DNA from: Escherichia coli
GTDB lineage: Bacteria > Pseudomonadota > Gammaproteobacteria > Enterobacterales > Enterobacteriaceae
Assembly (NCBI RefSeq): GCF_003790525.1
Contig: NZ_CP033635.1
Direction: 5' to 3' (one strand)
Length of the DNA stretch: 64,000 nt
The notes under the pieces: model-generated
Databases searched by the model: none
What the model saw: the letters and a program-made list of their open reading frames with translations, nothing else
Told to the model about the DNA's origin: nothing
Part shown: positions 1 to 48,149 of the stretch, in pieces
Numbering within the stretch: position 1 is the stretch's first letter
How the letters are laid out: each line of letters begins with the position of its first letter
Position numbers and translations under genes: made by a program

Positions 1-171
1 TTCAGAGCGGTTTCCGCCGATCCGTCGAAAGCCACCATTAGTGTGAAAGATATGACAATTACGGTAAACGGCGTGGCGACAGGTAAGGTGCAGATCCCTG
101 TGGTGAGCGGAAATGGTCAGTTCGCCGCAGTGGCTGAAGTCACCGTTAGTGAAGCGGGCGCTGCAGGGTAA
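1..171 (+). CDS. V: major tail protein V, C-terminal Ig-like domain (5' end outside window)
   Basis: Frame-1 translation [56 protein letters not shown], stop TAA 169-171; resembles lambda gpV C-terminus and lies directly upstream of G. Confidence 0.55.
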
Positions 172-184
172 ACGGAGGTAATAC

Positions 185-616
185 ATGTTTCTGAAAACAG
201 AACAATTTGAATATAACGGTGTGTCTGTCACGCTTTCCGAATTGTCTGCGCTGCAGCGTATCGAGCATCTTGCCCTCCTGAAACGGCGTGCAGAACAGGC
301 AGAATCCAGCGGCAACCTGCAGGTAAGCGTGGAAGATCTCGTCAGAACCGGCGCGTTTCTGGTGGCGATGTCCCTGTGGCATAACCATCCACAGAAAACG
401 CAGTCACCGTCAATGAATGAGGCCGTGATGAAGATAGAGCAGGAAGTGCTCACCACCTGGCCTGCCGATGCCATTGCCCGGGCGGAAGACGTGGTGTTGT
501 GCCTGTCCGGGATGATCGAAGCTGTTCGTCCGGATACTGATATTACTGAAGTGGCGAAAAATAACACGCTGACTGATGATGATTTTTCTGCGGGAAAGTC
601 TTCGACGGCGAGCTGA
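185..616 (+). CDS. G: tail assembly chaperone G
   Basis: 143-aa ORF MFLKTEQFEYNGVSVTLSELSALQRIEHLALLKRRAEQ... closely resembles lambda gpG as recalled; position between V and H. Confidence 0.85.
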   Translation: MFLKTEQFEYNGVSVTLSELSALQRIEHLALLKRRAEQAESSGNLQVSVEDLVRTGAFLVAMSLWHNHPQKTQSPSMNEAVMKIEQEVLTTWPADAIARAEDVVLCLSGMIEAVRPDTDITEVAKNNTLTDDDFSAGKSSTAS

Positions 617-1032
617 ACTTTGCCCTCAGACTGGCGCGTGAGATGGGGAGACCCGACTGGCGCGCCATGCTTGCCGGGATGTCATCCACGGAGTATGCCG
701 ACTGGCACCGCTTTTACAGTACCCATTATTTTCATGATGTTCTGCTGGATATGCACTTTTCCGGGCTGACGTACACCGTGCTCAGCCTGTTTTTCAGCGA
801 TCCGGATATGCATCCGCTGGATTTCAGTCTGCTGAACCGGCGTGAGGCTGACGAAGAGCCTGAAGATGATGTGCTGATGCAGAAAGCGGCAGGGCTTGCC
901 GGAGGCGTCCGCTTTGGCCCGGACGGGAATGAAGTTATCCCTGCATCCCCGGATGTGGCGGACATGACGGAGGATGACGTAATGCTGATGACAGTATCAG
1001 AAGGGATCGCAGGAGGAGTCCGGTATGGCTGA
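185..1032 (+). CDS. GT: tail assembly chaperone G-T fusion (made by -1 frameshift at 592-598; T part 598-1032)
   Basis: T-frame ORF 643-1032 (MGRPDWRAMLAGMSSTEYADW...) is open upstream to the slip site; arrangement matches lambda G/GT. Confidence 0.75.
592..598 (+). other. programmed -1 ribosomal frameshift slippery heptamer G GGA AAG (G to GT)
   Basis: GGGAAAG at 592-598 lies in the G zero frame (gcG GGA AAG) near the G 3' end; the -1 frame is open from 598 into the T ORF (VFDGELNFALRLAREM...). Confidence 0.8.
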
Positions 1033-3604
1033 ACCGGTAGGCGATCTGGTCGTTGATTTAAGTCTGGATGCGGCCAGGTTTGACGAGCAGATGGCCAGAG
1101 TCAGGCGTCATTTTTCCGGTACGGAAAGTGATGCGAAAAAAACAGCGGCAGTCGTTGAACAGTCAATGAACCGGCAGGCGCTGGCTGCACAGAAAGCGGG
1201 GATTTCCGTCGGACAGTATAAAGCCGCCATGCGTATGCTGCCTGCACAGTTCACCGACGTGGCCACACAGCTTGCAGGCGGGCAGAGTCCGTGGCTGATC
1301 CTGCTGCAACAGGGCGGTCAGGTGAAGGACTCCTTCGGCGGGATGATCCCCATGTTCAGGGGGCTTGCCGGTGCGATCACCCTGCCGATGGTCGGGGCCA
1401 CCTCGCTGGCGGTGGCGACCGGTGCGCTGGCGTATGCCTGGTATCAGGGCAACTCAACCCTGTCCGATTTCAACAAAACGCTGGTCCTTTCCGGCAATCA
1501 GGCGGGACTGACGGCAGATCGTATTCTGGCCCTGTCCAGAGCCGGGCAGGCGGCAGGGCTGACGTTTAACCAGACCAGCGAGTCACTCAGTGCACTGGTT
1601 AAGGCGGGGGTAAGCGGTGAGGCTCAGATTGCGTCCATCAGCCAGAGTGTGGCGCGTTTCTCCTCTGCATCCGGCGTGGAGGTGGACAAGGTCGCTGAAG
1701 CCTTCGGGAAGCTGACCACAGACCCGACGTCGGGACTGACAGCGATGGCACGTCAGTTCCATAACGTGACGGCGGAGCAGATTGCGTATGTTGCTCAGTT
1801 GCAGCGTTCCGGAGATGAAGCCGGGGCATTGCAGGCGGCGAACGAGGCCGCAACGAAAGGGTTTGATGACCAGACCCGCCGCCTGAAAGAGAACATGGGC
1901 ACGCTGGAGACCTGGGCAGACAGGACAGCACGGGCATTCAAATCCATGTGGGATTCGGTGCTGGATATTGGTCGCCCGGACACTGCCCAGGGAATGCTGG
2001 AGAAAGCAGAAAAGGCTTTTGATGAGGCGGACAAAAAATGGCAGTGGTATCAGAGCCGGAGCCACCGGCGCGGTAAAACCTCAGCATTTCTTGCCAATCT
2101 CCGGGGAGCATGGGAGGACAGAGCGAATGCGCAACTTGGGCTTTCAGCCGCCACGTTGCAGGCCGATCTTGAAAAGGCCAGAGAGATGGCAGCAAAGGAC
2201 TGGGCCGAGTCTGAGGCATCACGGCTGAAATATACCGAAGAGGCGCAGAAGGCTTACGAACGGCTGCAGACACCGCTGGAGAAATATACCGCCCGTCAGG
2301 AAGAACTGAACAAGGCACTGAAAGACGGGAAAATCCTGCAGGCAGATTACAACACGCTGATGGCGGCGGCGAAAAAGGATTATGAAGCGACGCGGAAAAA
2401 GCCGAAACAGTCCGGCGTGAAGGTGTCTGCGGGCGATCGTCAGGAAGACAGTGCTCATGCTGCCCTGCTGACGCTTCAGGCAGAACTCCGGACGCTGGAG
2501 AAGCATGCCGGAGCGAATGAGAAAATCAGCCAGCAGCGCCGGGATTTGTGGAAGGCAGAAAGTCAGTTCGCGGTACTGGAGGAGGCGGCACAACGTCGCC
2601 AGCTGTCCGCACAGGAGAAATCCCTGCTGGCGCATAAAGATGAGACGCTGGAGTACAAACGCCAGCTGGCTGCACTTGGCGACAAGGTTACGTATCAGGA
2701 GCGCCTGAACGCGCTGGCGCAGCAGGCGGATAAATTCGCACAGCAGCAACGGGCAAAACGGGCCGCCATTGATGCGAAAAGCCGGGGGGTGACTGACCGG
2801 CAGGCAGAACGGGAAGCCACGGAACAGCGCCTGAAGGAACAGTATGGCGATAATCCGCTGGCGCTGAATAACGTCATGTCAGAGCAGAAAAAGACCTGGG
2901 CGGCTGAAGACCTGCTTCGCGGGAGCTGGATGGCAGGCCTCAGGTCCGGCTGGAGCGAGTGGAAAGAGAGTGCCACGGACAGTATGTCGCAGGTTAAAAG
3001 TGCTGCCACGCAGACCTTTGATGGTATTGCGCAGAATATGGCGGCGATGCTGACCGGCAGTGAACAGAACTGGCGTAGCTTCACCCGCTCCGTGCTGTCC
3101 ATGATGACAGAAATTCTGCTTAAGCAGGCAATGGTGGGGATTGTCGGGAGTATCGGCAGCGCCATTGGCGGGGCTGTTGGTGGCGGCGCATCCGCGTCAG
3201 GCGGTACAGCCATTCAGGCCGCTGCGGCGAAATTCCATTTTGCGACCGGAGGGTTTACGGGAACCGGCGGCAAATATGAGCCAGCGGGGATTGTTCACCG
3301 TGGTGAATTTGTCTTCACGAAGGAGGCAACCAGCCGGATTGGTGTCGGCAACCTGTACCGCCTGATGCGGGGCTATGCGGAAGGTGGTTATGTGGGCGGT
3401 GCCGGAAGTCCGGCGCAGATGCGGCGGGCTGAAGGCATTAATTTTAATCAGAACAATCACGTGGTGATTCAGAACGACGGTACGAATGGTCTGCCAGGTC
3501 CACAGATGATGAAGGCAGTGTATGACATGGCCCGCAAGGGTGCCCGTGATGAAATTCAGGCACAGATGCGCGATGGTGGTCTGTTCTCCGGAGGTGGACG
3601 ATGA
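1025..3604 (+). CDS. H: tail tape measure protein H
   Basis: 859-aa ORF, Ala/Gln-rich helical protein with Gly-rich C-terminal part; start overlaps end of T; lambda gene order. Confidence 0.9.
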   Translation: MAEPVGDLVVDLSLDAARFDEQMARVRRHFSGTESDAKKTAAVVEQSMNRQALAAQKAGISVGQYKAAMRMLPAQFTDVATQLAGGQSPWLILLQQGGQVKDSFGGMIPMFRGLAGAITLPMVGATSLAVATGALAYAWYQGNSTLSDFNKTLVLSGNQAGLTADRILALSRAGQAAGLTFNQTSESLSALVKAGVSGEAQIASISQSVARFSSASGVEVDKVAEAFGKLTTDPTSGLTAMARQFHNVTAEQIAYVAQLQRSGDEAGALQAANEAATKGFDDQTRRLKENMGTLETWADRTARAFKSMWDSVLDIGRPDTAQGMLEKAEKAFDEADKKWQWYQSRSHRRGKTSAFLANLRGAWEDRANAQLGLSAATLQADLEKAREMAAKDWAESEASRLKYTEEAQKAYERLQTPLEKYTARQEELNKALKDGKILQADYNTLMAAAKKDYEATRKKPKQSGVKVSAGDRQEDSAHAALLTLQAELRTLEKHAGANEKISQQRRDLWKAESQFAVLEEAAQRRQLSAQEKSLLAHKDETLEYKRQLAALGDKVTYQERLNALAQQADKFAQQQRAKRAAIDAKSRGVTDRQAEREATEQRLKEQYGDNPLALNNVMSEQKKTWAAEDLLRGSWMAGLRSGWSEWKESATDSMSQVKSAATQTFDGIAQNMAAMLTGSEQNWRSFTRSVLSMMTEILLKQAMVGIVGSIGSAIGGAVGGGASASGGTAIQAAAAKFHFATGGFTGTGGKYEPAGIVHRGEFVFTKEATSRIGVGNLYRLMRGYAEGGYVGGAGSPAQMRRAEGINFNQNNHVVIQNDGTNGLPGPQMMKAVYDMARKGARDEIQAQMRDGGLFSGGGR

Positions 3605-5981: not shown

Positions 5982-8900
5982 ATGGGTAAAGGCAGCAGTA
6001 AGGGGCATACCCCGCGCGAAGCGAAGGACAACCTGAAGTCCACGCAGTTGCTGAGTGTGATCGATGTCATCAGCGAAGGGCCGATACAAGGACCGGTGGA
6101 TGGATTAAAAAGCGTGCTGCTGAACGGTACGCCGGTGCTGGACAGTGAGGGGAATACCAATATATCCGGCGTCACGGTGGTATTCCGGGCCGGTGAGCAG
6201 GAGCAGACGCCGCCGGAGGGATTTGAATCCTCCGGCTCCGAGACGGTGCTGGGTACGGAAGTGAAGTACGACACGCCGATCACCCGGACCATCACGTCGG
6301 CAAACATCGACCGTCTGCGCCTGACCTTCGGTGTGCAGGCTCTGGTGGAAACCACCTCAAAGGGGGACCGGAATCCGTCGGAAGTCCGCCTGCTGGTTCA
6401 GATACAGCGTAACGGTGGCTGGGTGACGGAAAAAGACATCACCATTAAGGGCAAAACCACCTCGCAGTATCTGGCCTCGGTGGTGGTGGGTAACCTGCCG
6501 CCGCGCCCGTTTAATATCCGGATGCGCAGGATGACGCCGGACAGCACCACAGACCAGCTGCAGAACAAAACGCTCTGGTCGTCATACACCGAAATCATCG
6601 ATGTGAAACAGTGCTACCCGAACACGGCACTGGTCGGTGTGCAGGTGGATTCGGAGCAGTTCGGCAGCCAGCAGGTGAGCCGTAATTATCATTTTCGCGG
6701 GCGCATTCTGCAGGTGCCGTCGAACTATAACCCGCAGACGCGGCAATACAGCGGTATCTGGGACGGAACGTTTAAACCGGCATACAGCGATAACCCGGCC
6801 TGGTGTCTGTGGGATATGCTGACCCACCCGCGCTACGGCATGGGGAAACGTGTTGGCGCAGCGGATGTGGACAAATGGGCGCTGTATGTTATCGGCCAGT
6901 ACTGCGACCAGTCGGTGCCGGACGGCTCTGGTGGCACGGAGCCGCGCATCACCTGTAATGCCTGGCTGACCAGGCAGCGTAAGGCGTGGGATGTGCTCAG
7001 TGATTTCTGCTCGGCGATGCGCTGTATGCCGGTATGGAACGGGCAGACGCTGACGTTCGTGCAGGACCGGCCGTCGGATAAGGTGTGGACCTATAACCGC
7101 AGTAATGTGGTGATGCCGGATGATGGCGCGCCGTTCCGCTACAGCTTCAGCGCCCTGAAGGACCGCCATAATGCCGTTGAGGTGAACTGGAGTGACCCGG
7201 ATAACGGCCAGGAGACGGCGACAGAGCTTGTGGAGGACACGCAGGCCATTGCCCGTTACGGTCGTAACGTCACGAAGATGGATGCCTTTGGCTGTACCAG
7301 CCGGGGGCAGGCACACCGCGCCGGGCTGTGGCTGATTAAAACAGAACTGCTGGAGACGCAGACCGTGGATTTCAGCGTGGGTGCTGAAGGGCTTCGCCAT
7401 GTACCGGGGGATGTCATTGAAATCTGCGATGATGACTATGCCGGTATCAGCACCGGTGGTCGTGTGCTGGCGGTGAACAGCCAGACCCGGACGCTGACGC
7501 TCGACCGTGAAATCACGCTGCCATCCTCCGGTACCACGCTGATAAGTCTGGTTGACGGAAGTGGCAATCCGGTCAGCGTGGAGGTTCAGTCCGTCACCGA
7601 CGGCGTGAAGGTAAAAGTGAGCCGGGTTCCTGACGGCGTTGCCGAGTACAGCGTGTGGGGGCTGAAGCTGCCGACGCTGCGCCAGCGCCTGTTCCGCTGC
7701 GTGAGTATCCGTGAGAACGACGACGGCACGTATGCCATCACCGCCGTGCAGCATGTACCGGAAAAAGAGGGCATCGTGGATAACGGGGCACACTTTGACG
7801 GTGACCAGAGCGGCACGGTGAATGGTGTCACGCCGCCAGCAGTGCAGCACCTGACTGTCGAAGTCACCGCAGACAGCGGGGAGTATCAGGTACTGGCCCG
7901 CTGGGACACGCCGAAGGTGGTGAAGGGCGTGAGCTTCCTGCTTCGCCTGACCGTGGCCGCGGATGACGGCAGTGAGCGGCTGGTCAGCACGGCCCGGACG
8001 ACGGAAACCACATACCGCTTCAGGCAGCTGGCACCGGGGAACTACAGGCTGACAGTCCGGGCAGTAAATGCCCGGGGGCAGCAGGGAGACCCGGCGTCGG
8101 TATCGTTCCGGATTGCCGCACCGGCAGCGCCGTCGCGGATTGAGCTGACGCCGGGCTATTTTCAGATAACCGCCACGCCGCATCTTGCGGTTTATGATCC
8201 GACGGTACAGTTTGAGTTCTGGTTTTCGGAAAAGCGGATTACCGATATCAGGCAGGTTGAAACCACAGCCCGTTATCTTGGTACCGGAAGTCAGTGGCTT
8301 GTCTCCGGCCAGAATATTAAACCTGGCCATGATTATTACTTTTATATCCGCAGTGTTAACACTGTCGGTAAATCGGCATTCGTGGAGGCAGTCGGTCGGG
8401 CGAGTAATGATCCTGCCGGTTACCTTAATTTTTTCAGGGGGGCGATAAATAAAACGCATCTGGGACGGGAGATCAATGAACGCATTGATGCCTCTGCACG
8501 GCGCACTGAAGTTGAGCAACTGGAGAATGCGATTAACCGCGAAATGACGCAGCTGGAGAATGCGATTAACCGCGAAATGACGCAGCTGGAGAAAGATGTG
8601 AGGCAGCGTGCGGAGCGTGATATCGCAGAGGTGACGAAAAAAATCACGGCGTCTGAAAACAGCATAACGGAACTGGTGGCGAAAAAGAGCGGTGAACAGT
8701 CGCTGGCCATTGCGAAAGTCGACAGGAAAGTTGACAGCGTGAGCAGTGAAATCCGGCAGACAGTGAGCAGGAGCACGGAGGAGAACAGCCGACAGATAGC
8801 GCAGGTCAGGCAGTATGTTGATGATAAAAGTGCGCAAATAAGTACTGTTGTGGCGAAAAAGAGCGGTGAACAGTCGCTGGCCATTGCGAAAGTCGACAGG

Positions 8901-9698
8901 AAAGTTGACAGCGTGAGCAGTGAAATCCGGCAGACAGTAAGCAGGAGCACGGAGGAGAACAGCCGACAGATAGCGCAGGTCAGGCAGTATGTTGATGATA
9001 AAAGTGCGCAAATAAGTACTGTTGTGGCGAAAAAGAGCGGTGAACAGTCAATGGCCATTGCGGAAGTTGACAGAAAAGTTGACAGGATGGGCAGCGAAAT
9101 CCGGCAGACAGTAAGCAGGAGCACGGAGGAGAACAGCCGACAGATAGCGCAGATCAGACAGTATGTTGATGATAAGGGAAGTCAGATCACACAGAGCACG
9201 GATAAAAAACTGGGATCCTGGAATGCCAGCATTGAGCAGATACAGAAAGTTCAGGAGGACACGCGCCGGAACCTGAACAGCATGTGGGCTGTGAAGCTGC
9301 AGCAGACACGGGATGGACGTCTCTATATTGCAGGTATTGGTGCCGGAATCGAAAATACGTCTGACGGAATTCAGAGTCAGATCCTGATGCAGGCAGATCG
9401 TATTGCGATGATTAACCCGGAAAATGGCAATACAACACCTTTGTTTGTGGCTCAGGGTGATCAGCTGTTCATGAATGATGTTTTCATGAAAAAACTGACC
9501 GTGGATTTTGCCAGAGTGACGGGAGATATCCGGTCAGATAATTTTGATTCCGGTAGTCCGGGGTGGCGTTTATCAAGAAACGGCAGCCTTGAAATTAACT
9601 CAGGAAGGCCCGGCGCAGGCCGCCTGTTTTTCAATGGCGAGCGAATCGACGTATATGACGATAACAATGTGTTAAGAGTACGACTGGGGAGACTGTAA
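5982..9698 (+). CDS. J: host specificity / central tail fibre protein J, with repeat-containing C-terminal region
   Basis: 1238-aa ORF after I; N-terminal part lambda-J-like; in-frame tandem repeats in the C-terminal third; C-terminus unlike lambda J. Confidence 0.9.
8520..8585 (+). repeat. 2 x 33-bp in-frame tandem repeat within J ([11 protein letters not shown] x2)
   Basis: ctggagaatgcgattaaccgcgaaatgacgcag occurs twice back to back. Confidence 0.9.
8676..9197 (+). repeat. 3 x 174-bp in-frame tandem repeat within J (58-aa unit [57 protein letters not shown])
   Basis: Unit starts at 8676, 8850 and 9024 (period 174); third copy slightly diverged. Confidence 0.9.
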
Positions 9699-45154: not shown

Positions 45155-45473
45155 TTATCATCATTCTTATTACCCATTTTTAATGAATCACAGGGCTTTT
45201 AATACACCGCAGCAATAACAGGTTGAGTTATCTCAACACAAATATGAAATATTGGTCCTGGATGGGCGCATTTTCTCTGTCGATGCTCTTCTGGGCCGAA
45301 CTCCTCTGGATCATTACTCACTGATCCCTGACCCCGCTGTTTGCTTTGTCTCAAGGTTTCTCCTCTTTTATCAATTTGGGTTGTTATCAAATCGTTACGC
45401 GATGTTTGTGTTATCTTTAATATTCACCCTGAAGAGAATCAGGGCTTCGCAACCCTGTCATTAAGGAGGAGCT

Positions 45474-48149
45474 ATGTCGTCAACCCTACGAGAAGCCAGT
45501 AAGGACACGTTGCAGGCCAAAGATAAAACTTACCACTACTACAGCTTGCCGCTTGCTGCCAAATCACTGGGCGATATCACCCGTCTACCCAATTCACTCA
45601 AAGTTTTGCTCGAAAACCTGCTGCGTTGGCAGGATGGTAAATCGGTTACCGAAGAGGATATCCACGCGCTGGCGGGATGGCTGAAAAATGCCCATGCTGA
45701 CCGTGAAATTGCCTACCGCCCGGCAAGAGTGCTGATGCAGGACTTTACCGGCGTACCTGCCGTTGTTGATCTGGCGGCAATGCGCGAAGCGGTTAAACGC
45801 CTCGGCGGCGATACTGCAAAGGTTAACCCGCTCTCACCGGTCGACCTGGTCATTGACCACTCGGTGACCGTCGATCGTTTTGGTGATGATGAGGCATTTG
45901 AAGAAAACGTGCGCCTGGAAATGGAGCGCAACCACGAACGTTATGTGTTCCTGAAATGGGGAAAGCAGGCGTTCAGTCGTTTTAGCGTCGTGCCGCCAGG
46001 CACAGGCATTTGCCATCAGGTTAACCTCGAATATCTCGGCAAAGCAGTGTGGAGCGAATTGCAGGACGGTGAATGGATTGCTTATCCGGATACACTCGTT
46101 GGTACTGACTCGCACACCACCATGATCAACGGCCTTGGCGTGCTGGGGTGGGGCGTTGGTGGGATCGAAGCCGAAGCCGCAATGTTAGGCCAGCCGGTTT
46201 CCATGCTTATCCCGGACGTAGTAGGCTTTAAACTTACCGGAAAATTACGTGAAGGTATTACCGCCACAGACCTGGTTCTCACCGTTACCCAAATGCTGCG
46301 CAAACATGGCGTGGTGGGGAAATTCGTCGAATTTTATGGTGATGGTCTGGATTCACTACCGCTGGCGGATCGCGCCACCATTGCCAATATGTCGCCAGAA
46401 TATGGTGCCACCTGTGGCTTCTTCCCAATCGATGCTGTCACCCTCGATTACATGCGTTTAAGCGGGCGCAGCGAAGATCAGGTCGAGTTGGTCGAAAAAT
46501 ATGCCAAAGCGCAGGGCATGTGGCGTAACCCGGGCGATGAACCGATTTTTACCAGTACGTTAGAACTGGATATGAATGACGTTGAAGCGAGCCTGGCAGG
46601 GCCAAAACGCCCACAGGATCGCGTTGCACTGCCCGATGTACCAAAAGCATTTGCCGCCAGTAACGAACTGGAAGTAAATGCCACGCATAAAGATCGCCAG
46701 CCGGTCGATTATGTTATGAACGGACATCAGTATCAGTTACCTGATGGCGCGGTGGTCATTGCTGCGATAACGTCGTGCACCAACACCTCTAACCCAAGTG
46801 TGCTGATGGCCGCAGGTTTGCTGGCGAAAAAAGCTGTAACTCTGGGCCTCAAGCGGCAACCGTGGGTCAAAGCGTCGCTGGCACCAGGCTCGAAAGTCGT
46901 TTCTGATTATTTGGCAAAAGCGAAACTGACACCGTATCTCGATGAACTGGGGTTTAACCTTGTGGGATACGGTTGTACCACCTGTATTGGTAACTCTGGT
47001 CCATTGCCCGATCCTATCGAAACGGCAATCAAAAAAGGCGATTTAACCGTCGGTGCGGTGCTGTCCGGCAACCGTAACTTTGAAGGCCGTATCCATCCGC
47101 TGGTTAAAACTAACTGGCTGGCCTCGCCGCCGCTGGTGGTTGCCTATGCGCTAGCGGGAAATATGAATATTAACCTCGCTTCTGAGCCTATTGGTCACGA
47201 TCGTAAAGGCGACCCGGTATATCTGAAAGATATCTGGCCCTCGGCACAAGAAATTGCCCGTGCGGTAGAACAAGTCTCCACAGAAATGTTCCGTAAAGAG
47301 TACGCAGAAGTTTTTGAAGGCACAGCAGAGTGGAAGGAAATTAACGTCGCACGATCCGATACCTACGGTTGGCAGGAGGATTCAACCTATATTCGCTTAT
47401 CGCCTTTCTTTGATGAAATGCAGGCAACACCAGCACCTGTGGAAGATATTCACGGTGCGCGGATCCTCGCAATGCTGGGGGATTCAGTCACCACTGACCA
47501 TATCTCTCCGGCGGGCAGCATTAAGCCCGATAGCCCGGCGGGGCGATATCTACAAGGTCGGGGTGTTGAGCGCAAAGACTTTAACTCCTACGGTTCGCGG
47601 CGTGGTAACCATGAAGTGATGATGCGCGGCACCTTCGCCAATATTCGCATCCGTAATGAAATGGTGCCTGGCGTTGAAGGGGGGATGACGCGGCATTTAC
47701 CTGACAGCGAGGTCATCTCTATTTATGATGCCGCGATGCGCTATAAGCAGGAGCAAACGCCGCTGGCGGTGATTGCCGGGAAAGAGTATGGATCAGGCTC
47801 CAGCCGTGACTGGGCGGCAAAAGGTCCGCGTCTACTTGGCATTCGTGTGGTGATTGCCGAATCGTTTGAACGAATTCACCGTTCGAATTTAATTGGCATG
47901 GGCATCCTGCCGCTGGAATTTCCGCAAGGCGTAACGCGTAAAACGTTAGGGCTAACCGGGGAAGAGAAGATTGATATTGGCGATCTGCAAAATCTACAGC
48001 CCGGCGCGACGGTTCCGGTGACGCTTACGCGCGCGCATGGTAGCCAGGAAGTCGTACCCTGCCGTTGTCGTATCGACACCGCGACGGAGTTGACCTACTA
48101 CCAGAACGACGGCATTTTGCATTATGTCATTCGTAATATGTTGAAGTAA
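45474..48149 (+). CDS. acnA: aconitate hydratase A
   Basis: 891-aa ORF with aconitase family motifs and the three Fe-S ligand cysteines. Confidence 0.97.

What the first reader, a model, noticed from the sequence alone, without database searches (positions are those of the whole stretch)
592..598. Conserved G/GT programmed -1 frameshift signal
The heptamer G GGA AAG sits in the correct frame near the end of G, and the -1 frame continues without a stop into T, so the lambda-type G:GT ratio control for tail assembly appears intact.
Basis: partly seen in the sequence, partly recalled or inferred. Interest (0 to 1): 0.3.

Follow-up and report, generated by a model that had tools for sequence, protein, structure and literature searches.

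The report
Lambda-type G/GT tail chaperone frameshift site
This is the textbook "slippery" sequence that makes a small share of ribosomes shift reading frame at the end of a phage tail-assembly gene, found intact in a lambda-like prophage of E. coli; it is real but ordinary and already well known.

Summary
GGGAAAG sits at 592-598, in phase (GCG|GGA|AAG) near the end of a 143-codon gene G (185-616). The -1 frame is closed by three TGA codons at 574-582. It opens at 583 and runs without a stop to 1030-1032, overlapping the tape-measure gene start at 1025.

G is a Phage_TAC_2 protein and the -1 product a Phage_tail_T protein. Phage lambda has the identical block TTTCTGCGGGAAAGT at the homologous place, although the G sequence just upstream has diverged.

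Across about 200 related junctions the core A_AAG (or A_AAA + stop) never varies. Conserved -1-frame protein sequence starts exactly at the shift site. The ATG at 643, which RefSeq uses as the T start, has no ribosome-binding site and is not conserved.

The heptamer is not enriched in the window (9 found, 7.9 expected). Only this copy has the required gene architecture.

Best explanation: lambda-type programmed -1 ribosomal frameshifting that yields mostly gpG and a minor 282-aa gpGT. The actual ratio was not measured.

A downstream RNA fold (606-675) is a weak, unproven candidate stimulator.

Verdict: already known; low interest.

The parts
1..171 (+). 3' end of the major tail protein gene (V-like), running off the left edge of the window
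   Evidence: The identical stretch in E. coli TUM1886 is annotated 'phage tail protein' and ends at the same base. In phage PhiR12_1 the gene immediately upstream of G is annotated 'major tail protein V'.
185..616 (+). Gene G, tail assembly chaperone (143 aa, zero frame). A strong Shine-Dalgarno GGAGGT lies 6 nt before the ATG.
   Evidence: ORF. Pfam PF06894 Phage_TAC_2, E = 1.9e-51. phrog_42 and phrog_32165. SD.
574..582 (+). Three consecutive TGA codons in the -1 frame (GAT GAT GAT in the G frame). They close the -1 frame until 9 nt before the shift site.
   Evidence: Translation; the -1 frame opens at 583.
592..598 (+). Slippery heptamer G_GGA_AAG, the site of the -1 shift. It encodes Gly-Lys in both frames.
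   Evidence: Identical to lambda at the homologous position. AAA at heptamer positions 4-6 is invariant in 53/53 diverse junctions and AAAG in 86/86 E. coli-type junctions.
598..1032 (+). T segment, read in the -1 frame after the shift (144 codons plus stop). With G codons 1-138 it gives a 282-aa gpGT fusion.
   Evidence: Pfam PF06223 Phage_tail_T, E = 2.3e-14. phrog_39 'tail assembly protein', and phrog_32165 positions 137-285.
614..616 (+). G stop codon (TGA), five codons after the shift site. It is bypassed by shifted ribosomes.
643..645 (+). ATG used by RefSeq as the start of a separate 'T' CDS. It is probably not an initiation site.
   Evidence: RefSeq annotation. No SD: the upstream sequence is ...ctggcgcgtgag ATG. 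The codon is Phe (TTC/TTT) in the N15, phi80, cdtI and Providencia types.
606..675 (+). Candidate downstream RNA structure, unproven. Helix 606-612/669-675 starts 7 nt after the heptamer and encloses hairpin 632-667.
   Evidence: Fold of 599-700: z = -2.1 in both the window and lambda. Pairing is 93.8% in 85 E. coli-type junctions but only 67.9% in 52 diverse ones. Synonymous-recoding control gives z = -2.1 for the window.
1025..3604 (+). Gene H, tail length tape measure protein. Its ATG overlaps the end of T, and its SD AGGAGGAG lies inside T's last codons.
   Evidence: Pfam TMP_2 8.4e-70 and Tape_meas_lam_C 5.5e-21. SD.

Best explanation
This is the programmed -1 ribosomal frameshift site of a lambda-type tail assembly chaperone gene pair in an E. 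coli lambdoid prophage.

**Proposed mechanism**
- Ribosomes start at the G ATG (185).
- Most read G_GGA_AAG in the zero frame and stop at 614-616, giving the 143-aa gpG.
- A minority slip one base back while tRNA-Gly and tRNA-Lys occupy GGA and AAG. Both tRNAs can re-pair perfectly, on GGG and AAA.
- The shifted ribosomes continue in the -1 frame from 598 to 1029, giving a 282-aa gpGT with the same Gly-Lys at the junction.

**Expected roles, by analogy with lambda (not tested here)**
- gpG and the G part of gpGT coat the tape-measure protein gpH.
- The T part recruits the major tail protein.
- A fixed low shift rate sets a high G:GT ratio that tail assembly needs.

**Shown versus inferred**
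- Shown here: sequence, phase, frame architecture, homology and conservation pattern.
- Inferred: that the shift happens in this prophage, and at a lambda-like rate.
For: **Sequence and frame architecture**
- The heptamer is in phase, 5 codons before the G stop. The -1 frame is open only from 583 and then runs for 149 codons.
- Gene order is V-end, G, T, H, with Pfam Phage_TAC_2, Phage_tail_T and TMP_2 hits.
- phrog_32165, a 290-position profile, is matched by G at 1-142 and by the -1 product at 137-285.

**Homology to known sites**
- Lambda has the identical TTTCTGCGGGAAAGT block at the homologous position, while window 551-600 matches lambda at only 28 of 47 aligned bases.
- The N15 record annotates the homologous heptamer as 'slippery sequence for -1 translational frameshift'. 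HK630 names the downstream product 'tail assembly protein GT'.

**Conservation across relatives**
- 79/79 close relatives keep GGGAAAG.
- 158/159 N15/phi80-type loci have G_GAA_AAG.
- In 53 diverse junctions, AAA at heptamer positions 4-6 is invariant.
- In every relative the -1 frame is closed 1-12 codons upstream, and the zero frame stops 0-5 codons downstream.
- Conserved -1-frame protein (GK.....EL.F...LARE.GRPDWRAML) starts exactly at the site.
- In the 5 codons after the site, codon differences between relatives are 28 synonymous to 105 non-synonymous in the T frame, against 2 to 109 in the G frame. All window/lambda differences there are T-frame third positions.

**No independent T start**
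- ATG 643 has no SD, whereas the G and H starts have strong ones. The codon is not conserved.

**Literature**
- Lambda G_GGA_AAG frameshifting keeps the zero frame about 96% of the time, gives a G:GT ratio near 30:1, and depends on mnm5s2U34 of tRNA-Lys (PMC3296357; PMC5009743; PMC7618472).
- G_GGA_AAG is highly shift-prone in E. coli (PMC5009743).
Against: - No expression data exist for this locus, and efficiency could differ from lambda. The upstream flank has diverged and the 3' neighbouring codon differs (GTC rather than GTG in the -1 frame).
- The heptamer is not enriched in the window as a whole.
- No upstream Shine-Dalgarno-like stimulator is present (direct reading of 560-591).
- A downstream stimulator is not established.
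- The prophage carries IS insertions in its side tail fibre region, so whether it still makes virions is unknown.
- The primary lambda papers (Levin 1993; Xu 2004, 2013) could not be read here.
Confidence: 0.93

Rival explanations
1. T is an independent gene translated from its own ATG at 643, as RefSeq and many phage records annotate it. On this view the heptamer is incidental.
For: RefSeq annotates 'phage tail assembly protein T' as a separate CDS that starts at the position equivalent to 643. Several phage records do the same.
Against: - There is no Shine-Dalgarno before 643: 'gcgcgtgag ATG', with GAG abutting the ATG. The G and H starts have GGAGGT and AGGAGGAG at proper spacing.
- The Met codon is Phe in the N15, HK225, phi80, mEp043, cdtI, Klebsiella and Providencia relatives.
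- The 15 -1-frame codons between the heptamer and 643 (VFDGELNFALRLARE) are conserved as protein across the family.
- phrog_32165 models a fused protein.
- In lambda, T is reported to be made only as the gpGT fusion (PMC5009743).
Confidence: 0.03
2. The frame change is made at the RNA level. RNA polymerase would slip on the A run, deleting or adding a base in some transcripts, rather than the ribosome slipping.
For: Transcriptional slippage does produce two-frame products in some bacterial and phage genes (reviewed in PMC5009743). Some relatives have a longer A run at the site (A_AAA_AAG in VT1-Sakai).
Against: - The A run here is only 3 bases (GGGAAAG). From general knowledge, productive transcriptional slippage needs runs of about 7 or more identical bases.
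- The conserved feature across relatives is the phase-specific A_AAG / A_AAA-stop pattern, which fits tRNA-Lys re-pairing rather than run length.
- Changes in tRNA-Lys thiolation alter lambda GT levels, which points to the ribosome (PMC3296357).
Confidence: 0.01
3. The signal is intact in sequence, but the locus is a decaying prophage remnant. The frameshift would then no longer be expressed or under selection in this host.
For: - Two IS1414 copies and an IS66-family element lie in the tail-fibre region, and the side tail fibre ORF lacks its N-terminus.
- The window does not contain the head or regulatory genes, so completeness cannot be judged.
Against: - V-end, G, T, H, M, L, K, I and J are all intact ORFs.
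- The closest genome has the full head-tail gene set upstream.
- The same G allele occurs in the phage records PhiR12_1/PhiR12_2, 100% identical at protein level.
- From general knowledge, loss of side tail fibres does not abolish lambda viability (laboratory lambda lacks them).
Confidence: 0.1

Closest known systems
Bacteriophage lambda G/GT programmed -1 frameshift (Levin, Hendrix & Casjens 1993; Xu, Hendrix & Duda 2004, 2013, 2014)
   Same: - Identical heptamer G_GGA_AAG inside an identical 15-nt block at the homologous codon.
- Same gene order, V-G-T-H.
- Same Pfam families.
- The G stop lies 5 codons after the site in both.
- The T part from about position 650 onward is 98-100% identical to lambda.
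   Different: - G is a different allele: 143 rather than 140 aa, 68.8% protein identity to lambda G, closest to PhiR12 and Stx2a-phage G.
- The 40 nt upstream of the site are unrelated in sequence.
- The -1 frame is closed only 3 codons upstream, against 13 in lambda.
- The first -1-frame codon after the site is GTC rather than GTG.
N15 / phi80 / HK225-type G-T frameshift (G_GAA_AAG)
   Same: Homologous G and T proteins, the same position, the same A_AAG core and the same 5-codon distance to the G stop.
   Different: The first triplet is GGA rather than GGG, so the P-site tRNA cannot re-pair perfectly. These sites look like mainly single-tRNA-Lys slippage (inference). The window has the full tandem-slippage heptamer.
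E. coli dnaX -1 frameshift (A_AAA_AAG with upstream SD-like element and downstream hairpin)
   Same: Same host translation machinery. The second codon is the same, A_AAG read by tRNA-Lys(mnm5s2UUU) (PMC5009743).
   Different: - dnaX shifts at roughly 50%, from general knowledge, with two defined stimulators.
- Here there is no SD-like element upstream.
- Only an unproven multi-helix fold lies downstream.
- The lambda-type rate is about 4% (PMC3296357).

Membership tests
Lambda-type tail assembly chaperone G/GT -1 PRF cassette | Two overlapping ORFs located between the major tail protein gene and the tape measure gene | tested here: met
   V-like gene end at 171, G 185-616, -1 ORF 583-1032, H 1025-3604.
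Lambda-type tail assembly chaperone G/GT -1 PRF cassette | The downstream ORF is in the -1 frame relative to the upstream ORF and lacks its own translation start signals | tested here: met
   Frame arithmetic. No SD before ATG 643. The ATG is not conserved in relatives.
Lambda-type tail assembly chaperone G/GT -1 PRF cassette | An in-phase slippery sequence (X_XXY_YYZ, or at least Z_ZZN) lies inside the overlap | tested here: met
   G_GGA_AAG at 592-598. It is the only in-phase X_XXY_YYZ heptamer in the 34-nt overlap.
Lambda-type tail assembly chaperone G/GT -1 PRF cassette | Sequence homology of the two parts to lambda gpG and gpT | tested here: met
   PF06894 at 1.9e-51 and PF06223 at 2.3e-14. 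DNA alignment to lambda. phrog_32165, phrog_42 and phrog_39.
Lambda-type tail assembly chaperone G/GT -1 PRF cassette | Shift site and two-frame architecture conserved in relatives despite sequence divergence | tested here: met
   16 annotated phages. 79 + 80 + 159 IMG/VR loci. A_AAG or A_AAA-stop is present in all of them.
Lambda-type tail assembly chaperone G/GT -1 PRF cassette | A GT fusion protein is actually produced at a low fixed fraction (about 3-4%) of G | not testable with these tools
   Needs a western blot, mass spectrometry or a reporter assay. Values for lambda come from the literature only (PMC3296357, PMC5009743).
Lambda-type tail assembly chaperone G/GT -1 PRF cassette | Both G and GT are required for tail assembly and are absent from virions | not testable with these tools
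   This is a genetic and biochemical property. It is known for lambda (PMC5009743).
dnaX-type stimulated -1 PRF | An SD-like sequence about 10 nt upstream of the heptamer | tested here: not met
   Window 565-591 (cacgctgactgatgatgatttttctgc) has no GGAG, GAGG or AGGA.
dnaX-type stimulated -1 PRF | A stable stem-loop 5-8 nt downstream, supported by covariation | tested here: inconclusive
   A helix starts 7 nt downstream (606-612/669-675) with z = -2.1. Pairing is 93.8% in 85 E. coli-type junctions with a single GC<->AU switch, and 67.9% in 52 diverse junctions. The RNAalifold covariation term is -0.09.

The most novel reading that the evidence does not exclude
In the E. coli lambdoid clade the G stop lies five codons beyond the shift site. 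There, a conserved multi-helix mRNA fold may act as the 3' stimulator that tunes the G:GT ratio. The fold is helix 606-612/669-675, which starts 7 nt after the heptamer and encloses hairpin 632-667.

More distant relatives (Providencia-type and others) lack this fold. They place a stop codon directly after the shift codon (G_GAA_AAG_TAG, x_xxA_AAA_TAG), which may serve as their stimulator.

The evidence is suggestive only:
- The spacing is right.
- z is about -2 against both dinucleotide shuffles and synonymous recodings.
- Pairing is 94% within the clade.
- One amino-acid-changing G>A substitution is matched by a synonymous C>U substitution at the paired position in 85/85 sequences.
Probability: 0.2. 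Interest if true: 0.3.

Novelty: already known. Interest (0 to 1): 0.08.

Why it matters
**Practical value.** This is mainly an annotation point. RefSeq and most phage records list G and T as two separate genes, with T starting at a non-conserved internal ATG. The biologically meaningful products are gpG and a 282-aa gpGT fusion joined at 598.

**Use as a marker.** The intact signal, with intact V, G, T, H, M, L, K, I and J genes, suggests the tail module of this prophage is still functional.

**Family survey.** It gives a compact picture of how the shift site varies (G_GGA_AAG, A_AAA_AAG, G_GAA_AAG, A_AAA_TAG) while the tRNA-Lys slip core stays fixed.

No new biology is claimed.

Tried and rejected
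1. **Enrichment of the heptamer.** Not enriched in the window: 9 found against 7.9 expected. Significance rests on phase, position and homology, not on count.
2. **Other GGGAAAG copies.** None has a G/T-like two-frame architecture. The copy at 45959 is in phase inside a long ORF, but its -1 frame stops after 8 codons.
3. **Alternative shift site T_TTT_TCT at 583-589.** It is not an X_XXY_YYZ heptamer and is absent from lambda. Rejected.
4. **Family-wide downstream RNA structure.**
   - The RNAalifold consensus has essentially no covariation term, -0.09.
   - The proposed structure is only 68% paired in 52 diverse junctions.
   - It is rejected as a family-wide element and kept as a clade-specific lead.
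5. **Rfam.** No frameshift-element family matches the region.
6. **Solved structures.** No PDB sequence relative of GT was found.
7. **Primary papers.** The first IMG/VR scan with G returned only 98-100% identical relatives, so further scans used distant T queries. Xu 2004 and Xu 2013 are not held, and Levin 1993 was not looked up. Statements about lambda rest on reviews and on Maynard 2012.

Full report
**Observation**

- The window reads ...GAT GAT GAT TTT TCT GCG GGA AAG TCT TCG ACG GCG AGC TGA in the frame of ORF 185..616.
- GGGAAAG occupies 592-598. It is phased as G_GGA_AAG (Ala-Gly-Lys).
- The -1 frame carries three consecutive TGA codons at 574-582. It opens at 583 and runs to a stop at 1030-1032, reading FFCGKVFDGELNFALRLAREMGRPDWRAML....
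- The overlap in which a productive shift can occur is only 34 nt (583-616). The heptamer is the only in-phase X_XXY_YYZ motif in it.

**Chance**

- GGGAAAG occurs 9 times in the window on both strands, against 7.86 +/- 2.54 in dinucleotide shuffles. The motif by itself means nothing.
- Of the nine copies, only the one at 592 combines two features: a long in-phase ORF that ends within a few codons (137 codons upstream, 7 downstream), and a -1 frame that is closed just upstream (3 codons) and open for 146 codons downstream.
- With 9 permitted in-phase positions, my own arithmetic gives about 0.2% for any X_XXA_AAG by chance under uniform composition.

**What the genes are**

- ORF 185..616 is a Phage_TAC_2 protein (lambda gpG family, E = 1.9e-51).
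- The -1 product is a Phage_tail_T protein (E = 2.3e-14).
- The next gene, 1025..3604, is a lambda-type tape measure protein.
- Sequence 1-171 is the end of the major tail protein gene.
- A single PHROG profile of 290 positions (phrog_32165) is matched by G at positions 1-142 and by the -1 product at 137-285. This is what one expects if the profile models fused GT proteins (inferred from this match pattern), with the join at the heptamer.
- The window is chromosomal E. coli DNA. Bases 1-1100 are 100% identical to strain TUM1886. The prophage sits next to a truncated ompW and the yciEFG-trp region.

**Comparison with lambda and relatives**

- Lambda has the identical block TTTCTGCGGGAAAGT at the homologous codon of G.
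- The sequence immediately upstream has diverged: 28 of 47 aligned bases are identical in window 551-600.
- G protein identity to lambda G is 68.8%.
- 79 of 79 close IMG/VR relatives in which G could be located keep GGGAAAG in phase.

I then fetched progressively more distant relatives: 14 annotated phages and three further IMG/VR scans. The shift site varies in a structured way:

| Site | Where found |
|---|---|
| G_GGA_AAG | lambda, ev099, HK630, PhiR12, Stx2a phages, this window |
| A_AAA_AAG | VT1-Sakai, Stx1 phages |
| G_GAA_AAG | N15, HK225, phi80, mEp043, cdtI, a Klebsiella and a Providencia phage; 158 of 159 N15/phi80-type loci (the remaining one has G_GCA_AAG) |
| A_GAA_AAG or C_GAA_AAG | some IMG/VR loci |
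| x_xxA_AAA_TAG | 12 of 80 loci by the script; three more (L110, L112, L114) also read this way in the corrected register |

- Supporting calls for the table are 30, 40, 41 and 65.
- AAA at heptamer positions 4-6 is invariant in 53/53 diverse junctions. AAAG is invariant in 86/86 E. coli-type junctions.
- The N15 GenBank record explicitly annotates its heptamer as the 'slippery sequence for -1 translational frameshift'.

**Evidence that the -1 frame is read from exactly this point**

- Protein conservation in the -1 frame begins at the Gly-Lys of the heptamer: GKVFDGELNF / KKAFEGELNF / GKALASELKF / GKVLTREMQF / GKVARRERVF, followed by ...LARE(M/F)GRPDWRAML.
- The -1-frame residues just upstream are unrelated, and they are cut off by stops 1-12 codons upstream in every relative.
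- The zero-frame tail after the site varies freely in sequence and length, from 0 to 5 codons.
- In the five codons after the site, codon differences among ten relatives are 28 synonymous to 105 non-synonymous in the T frame, against 2 to 109 in the G frame. The window/lambda differences there are all T-frame third positions.

**T has no start of its own**

- RefSeq annotates T from ATG 643.
- That ATG is preceded by gcgcgtgag with no spacing. The G and H starts have GGAGGT and AGGAGGAG at proper distance.
- The codon is Phe in most of the family.
- The separate 'T' CDS is therefore best regarded as an annotation convention, not a gene product.

**Mechanism**

- From established knowledge of -1 PRF: with tRNA-Gly on GGA in the P site and tRNA-Lys (mnm5s2UUU) on AAG in the A site, both can re-pair one base back, on GGG and AAA.
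- The protein junction is Gly-Lys either way.
- The products predicted here are gpG (143 aa) and gpGT (138 + 144 = 282 aa).
- For lambda the zero frame is kept about 96% of the time. The G:GT ratio of about 30:1 is required for tail assembly. gpG and gpGT bind the tape measure protein, the T domain recruits the major tail protein, and neither is in the virion (PMC5009743; PMC3296357).
- Hypomodification of tRNA-Lys U34 raises shifting and lowers phage yield (PMC3296357; PMC7618472).
- G_GGA_AAG is intrinsically highly shift-prone in E. coli (PMC5009743).
- That the same happens at this locus is inference from identity of the signal and homology of the genes.

**Stimulators**

- There is no SD-like element in the 30 nt upstream.
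- Downstream, 599-700 folds with z = -2.1 in both the window and lambda. The fold has a helix at 606-612/669-675, which begins 7 nt after the heptamer, enclosing a 14-bp hairpin at 632-667.
- Against synonymous recodings that keep the T protein, the excess stability varies:

| Sequence | z |
|---|---|
| window | -2.1 |
| lambda | -1.0 |
| N15 | -1.8 |
| phi80 | -3.4 |
| VT1-Sakai | -1.1 |
| cdtI | -1.7 |
| Providencia phage | +1.0 |

- In 85 distinct E. coli-type junctions the structure is 93.8% paired. One pair switches GC<->AU with no exceptions: an amino-acid-changing G>A is matched by a synonymous C>U. That is a single evolutionary event.
- RNAalifold gives a covariation term of only -0.09.
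- In 52 more diverse junctions only 67.9% of cells pair.
- I therefore treat the fold as an unproven, clade-limited lead.
- My recollection is that Levin et al. reported a modest downstream-sequence effect without a simple hairpin. I could not check this because the paper is not held.

**Rivals**

- Independent initiation of T is contradicted by the missing SD, the non-conserved ATG, and the conserved codons between 598 and 643.
- Transcriptional slippage is unlikely on a 3-A run. It also does not fit the phase-specific conservation or the tRNA-Lys dependence reported for lambda.
- A decaying, unexpressed prophage cannot be excluded. There are IS1414 and IS66-family insertions in the tail-fibre region. 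However, all tail genes from G to J are intact.

**Verdict**

This is the known lambda G/GT frameshift signal in a lambdoid prophage. Novelty is 'already known' and interest is low.

Noticed in passing
window 185-1100: The G-T cassette is a mosaic. Window 185 to about 690 is 99-100% identical to PhiR12_1/Stx2a-phage G. Window from about 650 to 1100 is 98-100% identical to lambda T/H. The crossover therefore lies in the conserved stretch just 3' of the shift site, and the two halves of the fusion protein come from different phage lineages.
   Followed up: partly
window 643-1032; NZ_CP128970.1 QVM91_RS14685: RefSeq/PGAP and many phage records annotate T as a stand-alone CDS starting at an internal, non-conserved ATG with no SD. 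They do not annotate a ribosomal-slippage join with G.
   Followed up: yes
L097-L176 (e.g. L103:701-710, L106:701-710, L096:1266-1275): More distant relatives place a stop codon directly after the shift codon (G_GAA_AAG_TAG, or GCA_AAA_TAG / GGA_AAA_TAG). This suggests single tRNA-Lys slippage helped by a slow-to-decode stop rather than tandem slippage.
   Followed up: partly
window 8516-8593 and 8676-9175 (inside J, 5982..9698): The tail tip gene J carries in-frame tandem repeats: 33 nt x 2.4 and 174 nt x 2.9 at 96-97% identity. Its product is 1238 aa, against 1180 aa in strain TUM1886. The 58-aa difference equals one 174-nt unit.
   Followed up: partly
window 11230-15155 and 15218-16849: The side tail fibre gene appears split. 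An IS1414 copy (11230-12549) and an IS66-family element (three ORFs, 12531-15155) precede an ORF that matches only positions 77-132 of the prophage tail fibre N-terminal domain. That ORF then has 45-nt collagen-like repeats x17.
   Followed up: partly
window 20467-21781: A second IS1414 copy lies on the same strand as the first, so the two bracket about 8 kb of tail-fibre and accessory genes. The same IS sits at different places in strain TUM1886.
   Followed up: no
window 18164-19597: A prophage-borne YadA-anchor (trimeric autotransporter-like) protein gene with 99-nt tandem repeats x4.4 at 98% identity. A small sigma-70 region-4-like HTH gene follows at 19659-20114.
   Followed up: no
window 22432-22521 (-), 31162-31255 (-), 45195-45368 (+): Rfam matches above gathering score: isrK, overlapping the C4 antisense-RNA target a1b1, near the prophage end; the trp operon leader; and the sRNA STnc180.
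   Followed up: no
window 895-1032: The T C-terminus contains two copies of a ...LM..A.G(L/I)AGGVR(F/Y)G motif, where shorter T proteins (N15, phi80) have one. The codons of the last copy (GGAGGAGTC) supply the Shine-Dalgarno for the overlapping tape-measure gene start at 1025.
   Followed up: no
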